A model generated the notes under the pieces. That model was not told where the DNA came from and made no database searches. It was given only the letters and a program-made list of their open reading frames with translations. A stretch of DNA of 64,000 nucleotides, from assembly GCA_051294375.1 (NCBI GenBank), contig CM119267.1, positions 10,787,045 to 10,851,044 on the forward strand, in the 5' to 3' direction. The DNA comes from Paraspadella gotoi (Eukaryota; Animalia; Chaetognatha). Shown here piece by piece: positions 32,603 to 63,776 of the stretch. Position numbers and translations under genes: made by a program. Position 1 is the stretch's first letter. The number at the start of each line of letters is the position of its first letter.

Positions 32603-32988
32603 TCACTTCTCCAAAGGCGCATAATTCAAAAGTTTTTCGATGAGATCCACGTGAGCCAGGAGCATTCGACGACAACAGTACCTGGAATGAAGAAGCAAAG
32701 AAACGAGGTCAGACGAGAAAACCAGAGATTCTATCAATCTCGATCGCACCTTCCGAAAAATTGACGCTCGTGAAACAGAAACCGGTTAGACTCGCGACGA
32801 GTAAATTCAACTCTCTCTCTCTATTTCTCTCTATTTCTCTCTCTCTCTCTCTCTCTCTCTTACCTCTTCAACCCCAAAACGTCAAGCGCGTCTCCCTCGG
32901 AATATTCTGCCTGTAAGAGTCCGAGGTAATTTTCCCACTTGTTTCCAATCACCTTCCCGCAGGTGAAACACCTCACCGGTATGATCAT
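32603..32988 (-). CDS. POLR2L: RNA polymerases I/II/III subunit RPABC5 (RPB10), 67 aa, 2 exons (32988-32864, 32681-32603); not called in the ORF track
   Basis: Manual splice gives [71 protein letters not shown] intron 32863-32682. Confidence 0.98.
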
Positions 32989-33293
32989 GGTTTTCTAGTC
33001 GATTCAGCAAAAACTGTTTAGGCGAGAAAGACTGTAAACCAAAAAAAAAACAGTCGGCACGCATGACGAGAGAGTGTGTGGTGATATCCATCACGCTCAA
33101 TCGACCACGACGAGAGTACAAAATAATTCAACAATAAATTACGATTCCTTCGCTAAAAACGAAGTTGCTTTTTCGTTACGATTATATTTTTAACTGTTCT
33201 GACGGGAGTCTCGAAATCTCAATATCCTTCTAAAAAAAAACTCCCTTTCATCCACGATTCTTCGAATTTCCTTTTCCACTCTCCCCTTCCTCT

Positions 33294-59951: not shown

Positions 59952-62900
59952 TCACAAGTGCTTGGATTTCATTGGCGAAGTAACAAGATGAAGAATGGAG
60001 GCGATAGAAGGCGATTTGGTCGGAGTCTTGATGGGTGAGAACATAACCGGCGACATTGTCCCGACGACGCGCTTAGCTGGAGATAAAAAGTCGCCGCCGA
60101 CTGGCGGCGACTTAAGCGGAGCATTGACGGACGGTTTGGGCGAAAAAGTTGAGGGCGATCGGTCCGTGCCCCAGAGATTATTCAAACGCAGAGCTTTCGA
60201 AGGAGGGGATGCCAAATTGGAGCGAGACTCGACTTTTGCTCGTTTCGTTGGCGTCATGAACAAATCCGGTGACCCCGGGGGACTGAGCTCTCGCTTTCTC
60301 GAGGCCTTAACTGGTGAAGAGTCGTCGAAAAGAGAGTTGACCACCGAGTTTGTCTTCGAGGGATGAAGCCCGAATCGAGGCTTTATGCGTCGCCATTTGT
60401 CGAATCCTGCGTCGGTATTGTCCGCCGTCTTCTCCGTCGATCTCGTTCGGAAACCGTTTTCGTCAGTGAAAGAAGAAATTTCTTTCACGCCGAGCAATTT
60501 TTCCAGCGATTTCGAGGAAATGTTTTTCAATTCCTTGCTGCTTTCAAAGACGTCATCTTCCAGAGATGTGGTGGCGTTCGATGTGCCCAGAGAGAGGGTC
60601 GTAGAATCAGCGAACAACCTTCGCGAGCTGGATACCGGAGATTCTGAATCAAACAGGGATCGAGATAGAGATCGATCGGAGTCATCCCCGTTCCCTGCGC
60701 CGCGGGATGAGGTTGCCAACGGGCCTTCGAAAAGTCTGCGTTTCCGACCGCCGATTCGGTCTGCCAAATCGCGCGATTGGAGGTATTTGTCGAAATTACG
60801 AGAATTCTTGTCGGAATCGTGCGTGTAGAACGATCGCCGTCGGACCAGCGAAGACGCTCGAGTGGCTGGACTATCTTTCTCCACTTTGTCTACTTGGTCA
60901 CCGGGTACGGTGGTCTTCAATTTCAGACGGCATACACTGTCGTTTGGGGGCGTATCTGCCGTTGATCTGCTCTTAATAGGGGATTCGACAATGACCATCT
61001 CGGCGAGAAAATTCTGCGCCTCCTCCTGAGTGGCGCCGTCTCTTTCAATCATGCGACGCCGGAGGATGGTCAATCTCTCGTTCATCGGCATCTGCTTGTG
61101 ATTTGGGGTCTCGGTGACTGTTCTGTCCTTCAACACTCTCTGATTAGCTTTGGGAGGTGTTTGAGGTATGGTTTGACCCTCGGTGAATGTACGGTTCAGT
61201 CGCTTTCCCTTACGACCAGAACCGTGAGTTCCAGGAGAAGGAAGTATCCTCTTTGAAGAAGAAACGACGGCGTTTTGATCCTCAAATAAATTACGACGCA
61301 CTTTTTTTGTGGCCGAGTCGGGACAAAGAGCGGAAGCTGTTCTCTCGATGATGCAAGATTGTGACAAAGACTTAGAAGGCGTTCTTTTCTCCACCCGCGA
61401 AGGCTTTCGCTTTTTATCCCCTTTCTTCTGTGCTGGAACGACGATCTGTCGCTGACTCGACTGCTGCATCGAACTATGTCGAGTAAAAGTCGTCTTGGAG
61501 GACCCCTGAGACAAGTTACTAGCGTTTGAGACGTAGCTGCCGGCGACGCTTCCTTGGAGCGAAAGAAGCGCAGAGATGGAAGGGTTGGAATCATAGGCAA
61601 GCAGGTCATTGTCTTGCCACTGCTTAAGACGAGAGCTCAACTCGTCGTCAGAATCGGAATCGGCGGGAGCCTTAGGTTCGTCCTCTTCCTCGGTCAAAAC
61701 TACAAGTATATCAGGCAGTGGCTGGAATAAAAGTTCGTGTACGGCGATCAGCAGTCGGGGCGACAAATGTAAGAAGTTAGTTAGCAGAAACTCATTGAGT
61801 AAATGCTTGAGGTAGTTGGGGTCCCTGTTGCGAAGAAAATCAACAATTTCCTCGGCGAGATCTATTCTATTTTTAGTCGAAGGATAAAGCGATTCAGATT
61901 CGAGACGCAGCACAACCTGAGCCTCGAACTCTCGGGATTTCTTTGCGAGATTTACGTCGTCGAATTTTCCTGCGTACTTTGTACGCAAATCTGTTTTGGA
62001 CTTGATAAAGTTTCTTTCAACGAAACCCAACGTCGCTGTATCCGAAGACGCTGACCCAGAAAGAAATTTAAAAAAACGCGAACTGCCGTTGAACAAGGCT
62101 TGTATGGTGCACAACATCTTGTTGCAGGCATCAACGTCAAAGGTTTGCCATGTCTCGGGTGAAGCTTCTTCCAAGAACACGTCATATGTCGAGCGCATAA
62201 CGATCAACAAGCTTTCCTCGTCATTAATGCCAATCGTCTCGATGGTTTCGGTTTCCGAACAATTGTAGAGTCGCATTCTGCGCAATCTCAACGCTTCCCG
62301 CTTTTGCTTCGCTTCCTTCGCCGGGGATAGCGCTTGAGAAGAGCTGGGCGAACCAGCGCCAGCAGTGAACGAATTATTTCTCGCCTTCGCAAACTCGTCT
62401 CCTTCCTTGCTCTTCCTTCTGCCTTCTTCCAATAACAAAAGGCTCCGGTCGATGCCCGACGAAGCTCGACGATGCATCGATCTATTCAGCGATCGACGAC
62501 TTTCGTCGATGCCCTTAAACATACGTTTCTTGGCCGCCAGTTGGGCCGGAGTTAGGGGAAGGAACGTACGCGGTTTGGAGACATCGTTCAGACGTTCGCG
62601 AAGGCGAGAGAGCGTCGAGGGAAGATTTATTGCGGAGGATTCGAAGGCGACAGAGCGGGACAGGTCGTCTTGGAGAGTTGGTCGTTTTCGTGTAGGAAAG
62701 ATGAGCGCCGATGACTTGACAGGACAAAGAAGGCCCAGATAGTCGTCATATTCGAGCAGAAGGGCGGCCCCCTTTTCCTTCAAAGTAGCTATCAGAGAAA
62801 GAAAATCGTCGCTATTCGACACGCATAGTAGCGAGCGCGAACAGTCCAAAGCGCTCAAGTCAAACGCTGATCCGGTAAGCAATCCTTTGGACACGAACTT

Positions 62901-63776
62901 CGTACTTTTGTAGCAGTCTTCTGTGGAAACGCTTTGAAGTTCCACCTTGGCCCTAACATTTCCCAATACGAGGAAGCCTTCCCAACTTTGCCATTTTTTT
63001 CCTCTCAACGCTTCAGCCAGGACGGAAAATCCTTGGGTTTTTAAAGACGTCGACCTGATAATCGAACCTCCAACCAACGGGAAAATATTGGCGAAATTCG
63101 GAGCGATACTCGTCGGCACAGAGTGGATCCACGAGACGGCGCAACCAATTTGGTCCTTATAGAGACTTGCAACGAGCGGCGGAAACAAGGATCGAAAAAA
63201 CGATTGAGCGAGTTGGTATGAAGATGTCTCGGCCGCGGCGCCCATGAAATCTTGGAGTTGCTCTTTCGTCGAAGGAGCGTCACCCACAAGAAACAAAAAG
63301 TTGTGCACGTATTGCGTATCGGCTGTTTTACGTCCTCCGCCGCCACTGCCGCCACCGCAACCGCCGGCAAGGCGTTTGGGGACCGAAATTTCGCGGCGCG
63401 ATTCGTCAGATTTACGCCAGGGAAAATCATGACCGATCTCTTTGAGAAGAATTTGATAAACGGCCGAAAGAGACGACGTCGAACGAGGGAGATCTTTGTC
63501 CGTTTCGCATTTGGCGGCAAAATCTTCCTCGAAGCGTTTGAAGATTTTCAAGTTGAACTCGAAAAACTCCCGACGTTTGAGGTGAGTTTTCCAGTGACGG
63601 CTGCGGAAGAAGAGGTAACCGAACTCTACGAAAGGAGTTGTATCGGAGGAGGCGGGAAGACTCTGGGAGAGGCAGGACAAAACCTTCAAGACACAGTCGC
63701 TGATCACAGTGACAGAGTCGGGAGAAACAGAGTCGCAGTCGATGGCGAAAACCGCCTGGAGTCGATTCTCCTCCAT
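59952..63776 (-). CDS. TICRR: Treslin (TopBP1-interacting replication initiation factor), intronless, 1274 aa
   Basis: N-terminal LKVLSCL..FGYLFFRS..FFEF..FKRFEEDF; Sld3/Treslin core REFEAQVVLRLE; KKVRRNLF cyclin motif; CDK-site motifs VTETPNHKQ and VIVESPIK; SP/TP-rich tail. Confidence 0.88.
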   Translation of the reverse strand: MEENRLQAVFAIDCDSVSPDSVTVISDCVLKVLSCLSQSLPASSDTTPFVEFGYLFFRSRHWKTHLKRREFFEFNLKIFKRFEEDFAAKCETDKDLPRSTSSLSAVYQILLKEIGHDFPWRKSDESRREISVPKRLAGGCGGGSGGGGRKTADTQYVHNFLFLVGDAPSTKEQLQDFMGAAAETSSYQLAQSFFRSLFPPLVASLYKDQIGCAVSWIHSVPTSIAPNFANIFPLVGGSIIRSTSLKTQGFSVLAEALRGKKWQSWEGFLVLGNVRAKVELQSVSTEDCYKSTKFVSKGLLTGSAFDLSALDCSRSLLCVSNSDDFLSLIATLKEKGAALLLEYDDYLGLLCPVKSSALIFPTRKRPTLQDDLSRSVAFESSAINLPSTLSRLRERLNDVSKPRTFLPLTPAQLAAKKRMFKGIDESRRSLNRSMHRRASSGIDRSLLLLEEGRRKSKEGDEFAKARNNSFTAGAGSPSSSQALSPAKEAKQKREALRLRRMRLYNCSETETIETIGINDEESLLIVMRSTYDVFLEEASPETWQTFDVDACNKMLCTIQALFNGSSRFFKFLSGSASSDTATLGFVERNFIKSKTDLRTKYAGKFDDVNLAKKSREFEAQVVLRLESESLYPSTKNRIDLAEEIVDFLRNRDPNYLKHLLNEFLLTNFLHLSPRLLIAVHELLFQPLPDILVVLTEEEDEPKAPADSDSDDELSSRLKQWQDNDLLAYDSNPSISALLSLQGSVAGSYVSNASNLSQGSSKTTFTRHSSMQQSSQRQIVVPAQKKGDKKRKPSRVEKRTPSKSLSQSCIIERTASALCPDSATKKVRRNLFEDQNAVVSSSKRILPSPGTHGSGRKGKRLNRTFTEGQTIPQTPPKANQRVLKDRTVTETPNHKQMPMNERLTILRRRMIERDGATQEEAQNFLAEMVIVESPIKSRSTADTPPNDSVCRLKLKTTVPGDQVDKVEKDSPATRASSLVRRRSFYTHDSDKNSRNFDKYLQSRDLADRIGGRKRRLFEGPLATSSRGAGNGDDSDRSLSRSLFDSESPVSSSRRLFADSTTLSLGTSNATTSLEDDVFESSKELKNISSKSLEKLLGVKEISSFTDENGFRTRSTEKTADNTDAGFDKWRRIKPRFGLHPSKTNSVVNSLFDDSSPVKASRKRELSPPGSPDLFMTPTKRAKVESRSNLASPPSKALRLNNLWGTDRSPSTFSPKPSVNAPLKSPPVGGDFLSPAKRVVGTMSPVMFSPIKTPTKSPSIASILHLVTSPMKSKHL

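What the first reader, a model, noticed from the sequence alone, without database searches (positions are those of the whole stretch)
32603..63776. Giant eukaryotic operon(s): 15 co-oriented genes with trans-splice-type acceptors
Seen: all 15 genes are on the minus strand (chance about 2 x 0.5^15, roughly 6e-5, if independent). Stop-to-start gaps in transcription order are 379, 232, 138, 280, 236, 2074, 170, 164, 291, 74, 63, 241, 410 and 305 nt. U-rich acceptors with no obvious donor partner precede the ATGs: TTTTACAG 6 nt before DDX1, GACTAG 6 nt before POLR2L, TTTTTTAG 21 nt before PMPCA, TTTTATAG 23 nt before ADAR, TTTTTCAG 32 nt before MRPL14, TGTGTTAG 35 nt before GEMIN6 and GATTTTAG 36 nt before PSMB3. 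Known: spliced-leader trans-splicing resolves polycistronic RNA in nematodes, tunicates, flatworms, chaetognaths and others, mostly in operons of a few genes. Inference: one 15-gene unit or a 6-gene plus a 9-gene unit, possibly continuing beyond the window edge. That is unusually long for an animal, and a new system if the lineage has no reported operons.
Basis: partly seen in the sequence, partly recalled or inferred. Interest (0 to 1): 0.92.

Follow-up and report, generated by a model that had tools for sequence, protein, structure and literature searches.

The report
Long gene operon in unidentified invertebrate
Fifteen unrelated genes, nearly all housekeeping genes, of an unidentified invertebrate sit head-to-tail on one DNA strand, and an assembled RNA sequence runs through six of them with the introns already removed, so they are likely read as one or two long operons and likely cut apart by leader splicing, though the leader itself was not seen.

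Summary
The cluster is real. One 7,435-nt contig of run X1 equals the genome from DDX1 to beyond PMPCA minus exactly 12 introns, crossing five gene boundaries while introns have zero depth. A sixth boundary is bridged by depth arithmetic. Acceptor-like sites are enriched before the start codons (8 of 15 vs 3.3 expected, z 4.0).

Corrections: the PMPCA acceptor is cis-spliced to a donor 68 nt upstream; POLR2L probably uses another AG; co-orientation alone is weak genome-wide. No spliced leader was seen, contigs are not molecules, and the five most upstream genes had no RNA laid. The lineage is unnamed. It falls outside the sampled arthropods, molluscs, annelids and nemerteans, but nematodes are not excluded.

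Best reading: leader-resolved operon(s), probably 9 + 6 genes. Nine equals the published maximum in Macrostomum and a chaetognath; fifteen would exceed it. The scan noted a three-gene rotifer candidate on other DNA, not this locus.

The parts
59952..63776 (-). TICRR/Treslin-like gene, 1274 aa, no intron in the coding region; first gene seen, 224 nt from the window edge
   Evidence: model; Pfam Treslin_STD E 3e-10; no RNA laid
55512..59572 (-). ADAR1-type gene, 922 aa, 8 modelled introns, Z-alpha domains plus deaminase
   Evidence: model; Pfam z-alpha and A_deamin; homologues; no RNA laid
53843..55279 (-). F-box gene (FBXO7-like, name recalled), 478 aa, no intron
   Evidence: Pfam F-box
52743..53704 (-). 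Unnamed gene, 293 aa, 1 modelled intron; the least secure of the 15
   Evidence: no Pfam family; no RNA laid
48801..52462 (-). NCBP1/CBP80 cap-binding subunit, 812 aa, 14 modelled introns
   Evidence: Pfam MIF4G, MIF4G_like, MIF4G_like_2
46539..48564 (-). SNAP29-like SNARE (name recalled), 277 aa, 2 introns
   Evidence: Pfam V-SNARE_C; 3' part has depth
44465..46538 (-). 2074-nt gap: covered in RNA contigs, holds a spliced non-coding leader of RPE; either a second promoter region or read-through
   Evidence: depth 118-150 in the three bins wholly inside it; no long ORF
44910..45046 (-). 137-nt intron in the RPE leader
   Evidence: record 2 piece ends at 44909; zero depth over 44910-45043; acceptor score 8.0, donor score 9.5; upstream end inferred
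43627..44464 (-). RPE ribulose-phosphate 3-epimerase, 229 aa, 2 introns
   Evidence: exon-only depth
42301..43456 (-). SUGT1, 292 aa, 4 introns
   Evidence: Pfam CS and SGS; 4 of 4 introns spliced in X1
39899..42136 (-). DDX1 helicase, 745 aa, no intron; acceptor-like AG ending at 42143
   Evidence: acceptor score 8.2
39057..39607 (-). MRPL14-like, 160 aa, 1 intron; acceptor-like AG ending at 39640
   Evidence: intron spliced in record 1; acceptor score 8.6
38371..38982 (-). GEMIN6, 203 aa; weak acceptor-like AG ending at 39018
   Evidence: score 4.0, p 0.33
37690..38307 (-). Proteasome beta subunit (PSMB3, name recalled), 205 aa; AG ending at 38344, 27 nt after the GEMIN6 stop
36699..37448 (-).
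   Evidence: Pfam KCT2 E 6.6e-4, below cut-off; score 9.7
36310..36377 (-).
   Evidence: joint 36309-36378 in X1, GT-AG ends
33294..36288 (-). PMPCA mitochondrial processing peptidase alpha, 595 aa, 10 introns
   Evidence: 10 of 10 introns spliced in X1; Pfam Peptidase_M16
33032..33113 (-). 82-nt stretch between the end of record 1 and the best acceptor before POLR2L; candidate intercistronic region
   Evidence: record 1 ends at 33114; POLR2L contig end at 33031 inferred by arithmetic; length
32603..32988 (-). POLR2L/RPB10, 67 aa, 1 intron; last gene of the run
   Evidence: X3 contig spliced across the same intron
33114..41891 (-). Span of X1 record 1: one 7435-nt intron-free contig across DDX1, MRPL14, GEMIN6, PSMB3, KCT2-like and PMPCA
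   Evidence: table 8; span minus 12 introns = 7435

Best explanation
Fifteen genes lie head-to-tail on one strand with short spacers and one spliced RNA contig crosses five of the spacers, so the block is likely transcribed as polycistronic RNA (probably a nine-gene RPE-to-POLR2L unit and a six-gene TICRR-to-SNAP29 unit) that is likely resolved into single-gene mRNAs by spliced-leader trans-splicing. Shown: gene order, spacing, RNA cover of spacers with introns removed, and enrichment of acceptor-like sites before start codons. Inferred: RNA polymerase II starts upstream of TICRR and probably again inside the 2074-nt gap. Introns are removed first. Each upstream gene gets a 3' end in a U-rich spacer, and a capped leader is spliced onto the unpaired AG some 6-60 nt before the next start codon. 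Incompletely resolved, intron-free precursors would explain why the assembler joins neighbours.
For: Record 1 of X1 (7435 nt) equals the genomic span 41891-33114 minus 12 introns exactly. The 16 bins over 33362-41857 are explained by that record alone: 14 within about 2 nt, the other two off by a few bases at the MRPL14 junction and at a skipped repeat. Introns of 66-354 nt therefore have no depth while spacers do. The SUGT1 contig reaches at least 87 nt above its ATG (side 151) and by arithmetic about 43770, inside RPE. Of the 5 pre-ATG acceptor sites inside record 1, 4 are not cis-spliced. Acceptor scores in the 60 nt before the ATG sum to 87.3 against 52.2 +/- 8.9 (z 4.0), with 8 of 15 at or above the median true acceptor against 3.3 expected. 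Without PMPCA, TICRR and RPE it is 7 of 12 against 3.0 (z 3.3). Controls: post-stop 2 of 13, opposite strand 1 of 15, intron interiors 5 of 30, gene-free DNA 4 of 30, each near its null. 11 of 15 best AGs have no donor above the 10th percentile of true donors within 55-199 nt. Spacers of 63 and 74 nt leave 27 and 39 nt from stop to AG and hold no AATAAA/ATTAAA. At two unbridged boundaries a contig ends 82 and 75 nt before an acceptor. RNA-seq assembly also yields operon-length 'transcriptional units' in Macrostomum (PMC8629364, passages).
Against: No leader was seen. None of the 6 loose-end rows shown for X1 lies at a gene start, 86 rows over all three runs were not shown, and no extra contig lies at the five gene starts inside record 1; assembly prunes such tips, so this is weak. 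A contig is a graph path, not a molecule, and overlapping UTRs of separate transcripts give the same result. There is one run from one study, and its RNA label is a guess by the tool. The PMPCA acceptor is cis-paired, and the donor used scores only 4.0, so low donor scores do not prove that an AG is unpaired. 6 of 15 genes have weak best acceptors (0.2-4.0), and at the looser threshold the count is 9 of 15 against 6.3, p 0.13. Gene-free DNA also shows a mild excess over shuffles (z 1.6-2.0). SUGT1-DDX1 and PMPCA-POLR2L are not bridged. TICRR to NCBP1 had no RNA laid. Rfam found no RNA gene in the window.
Confidence: 0.6

Rival explanations
1. Independent genes in a compact genome. Each has its own promoter inside or just behind the upstream gene, 3' and 5' UTRs overlap or read through, the assembler chains them, and the acceptor-like sites are 5' UTR intron ends or U-rich chance.
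For: Two real leader introns exist (PMPCA 68 nt, RPE 137 nt). Co-orientation alone is expected about 0.46 times per genome. Dimorphilus has a gene-dense 73.8-Mb genome without operons or leaders (PMC7854359, passages). No leader was seen.
Against: Six overlaps of at least 30 nt in a row would be needed, two of them across spacers of only 63 and 74 nt. 4 of 5 pre-ATG acceptors in record 1 are not cis-spliced although all 12 introns are removed. Acceptor enrichment holds without PMPCA, TICRR and RPE (z 3.3). No head-to-head pair occurs among 15 genes.
Confidence: 0.2
2. Polycistronic transcription without a spliced leader: intron-free multi-gene RNAs persist and are translated by re-initiation or internal entry, or are cut and capped by another route.
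For: The only RNA form seen over DDX1-PMPCA is the unresolved one, with no side contigs at five gene starts. SNAP29 and SUGT1 lack good acceptors (0.2 and 2.8).
Against: Enriched unpaired acceptors have no use in this model. Two boundaries show contig ends 75-82 nt before an acceptor. Efficient translation of six long ORFs from one capped RNA has no animal precedent that I recall (not searched).
Confidence: 0.12
3. The bridging comes from genomic DNA in the run or from an assembly artefact.
For: The tool marks X1 as 'RNA?' and warns that DNA may be in it. No separate silent stretch was laid.
Against: Introns of up to 354 nt have zero depth, and record 1 lacks exactly 12 introns. The gene order in the contig equals the genome's.
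Confidence: 0.05

Closest known systems
Chaetognath (Paraspadella gotoi) operons, PMC12460157 (passages; supplement search)
   Same: Unrelated housekeeping genes including proteasome subunits, short spacers (250 bp rule), longest nine genes.
   Different: There the leaders are identified; here none was seen. Six gene-name terms gave 0 hits in 3 supplement files held as text, so shared operon content is not shown. A 15-gene unit would be longer.
Macrostomum lignano operons, PMC8629364 (passages)
   Same: Conserved genes, spacer peak near 100 bp, maximum nine genes, precursors recovered as multi-gene units in RNA-seq assembly.
   Different: 75% of those operons have two genes and the SL RNA is known; the lineage here is not shown to be a flatworm.
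Ciona intestinalis operons, PMC1488885 (passages) and PMC7986045 (passages)
   Same: Unresolved dicistronic cDNAs occur; the 63- and 74-nt spacers here leave almost no room for intercistronic DNA.
   Different: Ciona operons are mostly dicistronic (up to 6-7 genes) with no intercistronic DNA; here two boundaries suggest 75-82 nt of it.
Caenorhabditis elegans SL2 operons (two to eight genes, about 100 bp apart, as cited in PMC8629364)
   Same: Same anatomy if the 75-82-nt stretches are intercistronic regions.
   Different: Acceptors here have T at -5 in only 28 of 43 and at -6 in 22 of 43, unlike the near-fixed TTTTCAG that I recall for C. elegans. A Z-alpha ADAR1 is present, which I recall nematode models lack.
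Dimorphilus gyrociliatus compact genome, PMC7854359 (passages)
   Same: Gene-dense animal genome with about 66-bp median introns.
   Different: No operons or leaders there; it is the model for the independent-promoter rival.

Membership tests
SL-resolved animal operon | Tight same-strand run of unrelated genes | tested here: met
   15 genes, 13 of 14 gaps 410 nt or less, median 238.5
SL-resolved animal operon | RNA molecules that cross gene boundaries | tested here: inconclusive
   One intron-free contig crosses 5 boundaries and a sixth is bridged by arithmetic; 2 of the 8 boundaries in the nine-gene block are unbridged; contigs are not molecules
SL-resolved animal operon | Unpaired 3' splice sites before downstream start codons | tested here: met
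   Enriched (z 4.0; 8 of 15 vs 3.3); 4 of 5 in record 1 not cis-spliced; PMPCA is cis-paired; 6 of 15 weak
SL-resolved animal operon | Shared non-genomic leader on mature 5' ends | tested here: inconclusive
   None among the 18 loose-end rows shown (6 per run); 86 rows not shown; contigs drop short tips
SL-resolved animal operon | SL RNA gene with donor site and Sm site in the genome | not testable with these tools
   No whole genome held; Rfam 0 matches in the window
SL-resolved animal operon | One promoter per unit | not testable with these tools
   Needs CAGE, ATAC or H3K4me3
Ciona-type operon without intercistronic DNA | Upstream 3' end abuts the acceptor | tested here: inconclusive
   27 and 39 nt from stop to AG at two boundaries, but 75 and 82 nt between contig end and AG at two others
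Nematode operon | Host is a nematode with TTTTCAG-type acceptors | tested here: inconclusive
   Acceptor consensus loose. DDX1 does not group with 3 nematode rows in the free tree, but the grouping is not rejected (p-AU 0.33)
Pancrustacean host (copepod or amphipod type trans-splicing, recalled) | Host groups with Pancrustacea | tested here: not met
   p-AU 0.007 on DDX1. Against this, the window shares a one-residue WYHG[EQ]WC insertion with the pancrustacean rows and not with chelicerate, mollusc, annelid, nemertean or deuterostome rows

The most novel reading that the evidence does not exclude
An animal phylum with no reported operons (a gastrotrich or similar meiofaunal group is a guess from tree position and from relatives being common in environmental assemblies) packs housekeeping genes into polycistronic arrays of 9 to 15 or more genes. 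That would match or exceed the longest animal operons found in the papers read, and would mark a further independent origin of operon resolution.
Probability: 0.3. Interest if true: 0.85.

Novelty: new member of a known kind. Interest (0 to 1): 0.6.

Why it matters
Operons resolved by leader splicing have a patchy distribution in animals, and whether they arose many times is debated (PMC12460157, PMC2481426, passages). The papers read give maxima of 7 to 9 genes. A nine-gene unit here would tie that maximum and a fifteen-gene unit would clearly exceed it. If the host belongs to a phylum without reported operons, it adds an independent test case, and the test is cheap: public RNA of this species exists, and its raw reads would show a leader at once.

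Tried and rejected
No whole genome is held, so genome-wide strand runs and an SL RNA search were impossible. No holder on record as RNA was listed; X1 is RNA by guess and by its spliced joints.

The metagenome scan with DDX1 gave 3 loci from 99 pattern matches, 1.4-3.0 kb long, which were not searched for neighbouring genes (first 400 nt of L001 viewed). Conservation of gene order is therefore untested.

The stretch 41892-42217 has no cover in X1. It includes DDX1 coding sequence, so it is treated as a hole and not as evidence. A first idea that the RPE contig starts at the AG ending at 45455 (score 7.6) was left open, because a possible further intron at 45272-45172 would move that end.

Lineage: DDX1 top 120, ADAR exon top 120, Pax C-terminal region 5 hits and 150 representatives gave only unnamed close relatives (DDX1 84-86%, ADAR exon 63-64%, Pax 62-73%). 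The best named hits were at most 66% and 51%. Names were sought for 20 of the 150 representatives. Trees used 59, 25 and 27 DDX1 rows and 26 ADAR rows, all quick searches, with no rotifer, flatworm, tardigrade, gastrotrich or chaetognath row. The ESM atlas did not answer. The bacterial promoter scan is irrelevant here.

Literature: 10 searches. 'spliced leader' + 'gastrotrich' gave 1 unrelated review, 'longest operon' + 'trans-splic' gave 1 paper, and 'largest operon' + 'trans-splic' gave 0. Among the listings seen, none reported operons in gastrotrichs, gnathostomulids, kinorhynchs or catenulids; the library lacks most subscription papers, and preprint supplements were not available.

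
Full report
What is in the sequence. The region 63776-32603 holds 15 genes on the minus strand: TICRR-like, ADAR1-type, an F-box gene, an unnamed ORF, NCBP1, SNAP29-like, RPE, SUGT1, DDX1, MRPL14-like, GEMIN6, PSMB3, KCT2-like, PMPCA and POLR2L. 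All 15 models translate openly with 43 canonical introns. Pfam gives a domain hit for 13 and a sub-threshold hit for KCT2-like; the unnamed ORF has none. The names FBXO7, SNAP29, PSMB3, PMPCA and MRPL14 are finer than the Pfam hits and are recalled. The rest of the window is gene-poor apart from an intronless Pax gene on the plus strand.

Chance. For an assumed 15,000 genes about 0.46 runs of 15 are expected, so orientation alone proves little. A weight matrix from the 43 modelled acceptors scores the 60 nt before each ATG well above shuffles. With dinucleotide shuffles the sum is 87.3 against 52.2 +/- 8.9, and 8 of 15 reach the median true score against 3.3 expected. With trinucleotide shuffles z is 3.4, and without PMPCA, TICRR and RPE z is 3.3. 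Post-stop, opposite-strand and intron-interior controls show no excess, and gene-free DNA a mild one (z 1.6-2.0). At a looser threshold the count is not significant (9 of 15 against 6.3, p 0.13). SNAP29 and SUGT1 have poor sites.

RNA. One public run holds the stretch (X1, 0.83 of sampled words). Its contigs were laid on 32300-48200 with two other runs of the same study. X1 skips GT-AG introns of the minus strand: 15 joints are listed and a 16th follows from the pieces, all checked. Record 1 runs from 41891 to 33114 in 7435 nt, exactly the genomic span minus 12 introns, and crosses five gene boundaries. Depth over 33362-41857 is explained by this record alone, so introns up to 354 nt have no cover while spacers do. 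That argues against genomic DNA and shows no side contigs at five gene starts. The SUGT1 contig reaches at least 87 nt above its ATG and by arithmetic into RPE. Two boundaries are unbridged. Record 1 stops 82 nt before the best acceptor of POLR2L, and the POLR2L contig is computed to end at 33031, the first base after that AG. The SUGT1 contig is computed to stop 75 nt before the DDX1 acceptor, next to a hole that includes DDX1 coding sequence. These ends come from bin arithmetic, not from displayed rows, and a skipped repeat could shift the SUGT1 figure. The 2074-nt gap is not silent: its three inner bins have depth 118-150, and a 137-nt leader intron of RPE is spliced. No continuous bridge to SNAP29 is shown.

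The AG 21 nt before PMPCA is spliced in cis to a donor at 36377. The used donor scores only 4.0, so other apparently unpaired AGs could have weak partners; inside record 1, however, 4 of 5 are not cis-spliced. The GACTAG before POLR2L is probably not the site in use. No leader was seen: none of the 6 X1 loose ends shown lies at a gene start, and 86 rows over the three runs were hidden. One small hint is that the POLR2L contig of X3 begins with CAG 12 nt before its ATG, which fits a junction at an acceptor but also a plain end of coverage.

Host. DDX1 has unnamed relatives at 84-86% and named animals at 66% or less. The ADAR exon has unnamed relatives at 63-64% and a chiton at 51%, and the Pax C-terminus has only 5 unnamed hits. 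In DDX1 trees the window and its relatives form a long-stemmed group outside Arthropoda and outside the sampled molluscs, annelids and nemerteans, with unresolved attachment. ADAR leaves it unresolved outside the sampled lophotrochozoans. Grouping with Pancrustacea is rejected (p-AU 0.007) despite a shared one-residue insertion, and grouping with nematodes is not rejected (p-AU 0.33). One DDX1 cluster of relatives has 16 members, of which 12 of the 15 listed come from ENA, many as fragments and some ending at intron-like positions. This suggests small-genome animals common in environmental samples (inference). Coding CpG observed/expected is 1.26, so gene-body methylation is unlikely. Gastrotrich, catenulid, chaetognath, enoplian nematode and other meiofauna remain open; none but nematodes had a reference row.

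Mechanism. Most likely the block is transcribed as polycistronic RNA, introns are removed, and a capped leader is spliced onto unpaired acceptors to free each downstream mRNA (0.6). Steps shown: clustering, intron-free RNA cover across spacers, acceptor enrichment. Steps inferred: promoter number, single molecules, the leader. Rivals are independent promoters with overlapping UTRs (0.2), polycistronic RNA without a leader (0.12) and artefact (0.05). It works like the operons of chaetognaths, flatworms, tunicates and nematodes. Membership is not shown because the defining leader is untested.

Comparison with print. I saw passages only of each paper. P. gotoi has 18% of genes in operons and the longest has nine (PMC12460157). 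M. lignano has a maximum of nine and cites two to eight for C. elegans (PMC8629364). Ciona has up to six or seven, mostly without intercistronic DNA and with rare unresolved cDNAs (PMC7986045; PMC1488885). A Spadella BAC shows further closely clustered co-oriented genes (PMC2481426). Under the 500-bp same-strand rule used for Oikopleura (PMC11067885), applied here to stop-to-start gaps, this locus is a 6-gene plus a 9-gene operon. Dimorphilus shows that compaction need not bring operons (PMC7854359). So nine genes ties the maximum found, and only read-through of the 2074-nt gap would make it giant.

Verdict. It is filed as a probable new member of a known kind, with a 0.3 chance of the bolder case (long operons in a phylum without any on record). 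Interest 0.6.

Noticed in passing
window 7533-9383 (+): Intronless Pax2/5/8-type gene with octapeptide-like motif and a nearly complete homeodomain (Pfam Homeodomain E 1.5e-8), alone in gene-poor DNA; five unnamed relatives at 62-73%. A developmental gene isolated next to a packed housekeeping block.
   Followed up: partly
window 45267-45416 (-): 50-codon stop-free frame with a retropepsin-like D-S-G motif (resemblance recalled) inside the SNAP29-RPE gap; no Pfam match. A possible retroelement remnant that may have widened this spacer.
   Followed up: partly
window 39899-42136 (-): DDX1 has no intron here, while relatives P0247/P0398 and P0002 end in intron-like tails near residues 449 and 592; suggests recent intron loss. 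Six of 15 genes lack coding introns while NCBP1 keeps 14.
   Followed up: partly
window 55512-59572 (-): ADAR1-type gene with two Pfam Z-alpha hits and a third similar repeat by eye; one modelled intron has a GC donor at 57328, not checked in RNA.
   Followed up: partly
window 48801-52462 and 38371-38982 (-): The cluster includes the cap-binding subunit NCBP1 and the snRNP assembly factor GEMIN6, both of a kind needed for leader splicing (recalled); may be chance.
   Followed up: no
window 34932 and NCBP1 introns ending at 50280, 49094 and 51089: Relaxed -3 position at acceptors: a GAG acceptor in PMPCA is confirmed by X1; 4 of 43 modelled introns end in AAG.
   Followed up: partly
window 46743-47859: The long SNAP29 intron holds a 9/18-nt purine-rich tandem repeat and attracts very deep repeat contigs.
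   Followed up: no
window 46089-46173: An X1 contig carries other letters across this stretch (table 5c): a length variant between the sample and the assembly.
   Followed up: no
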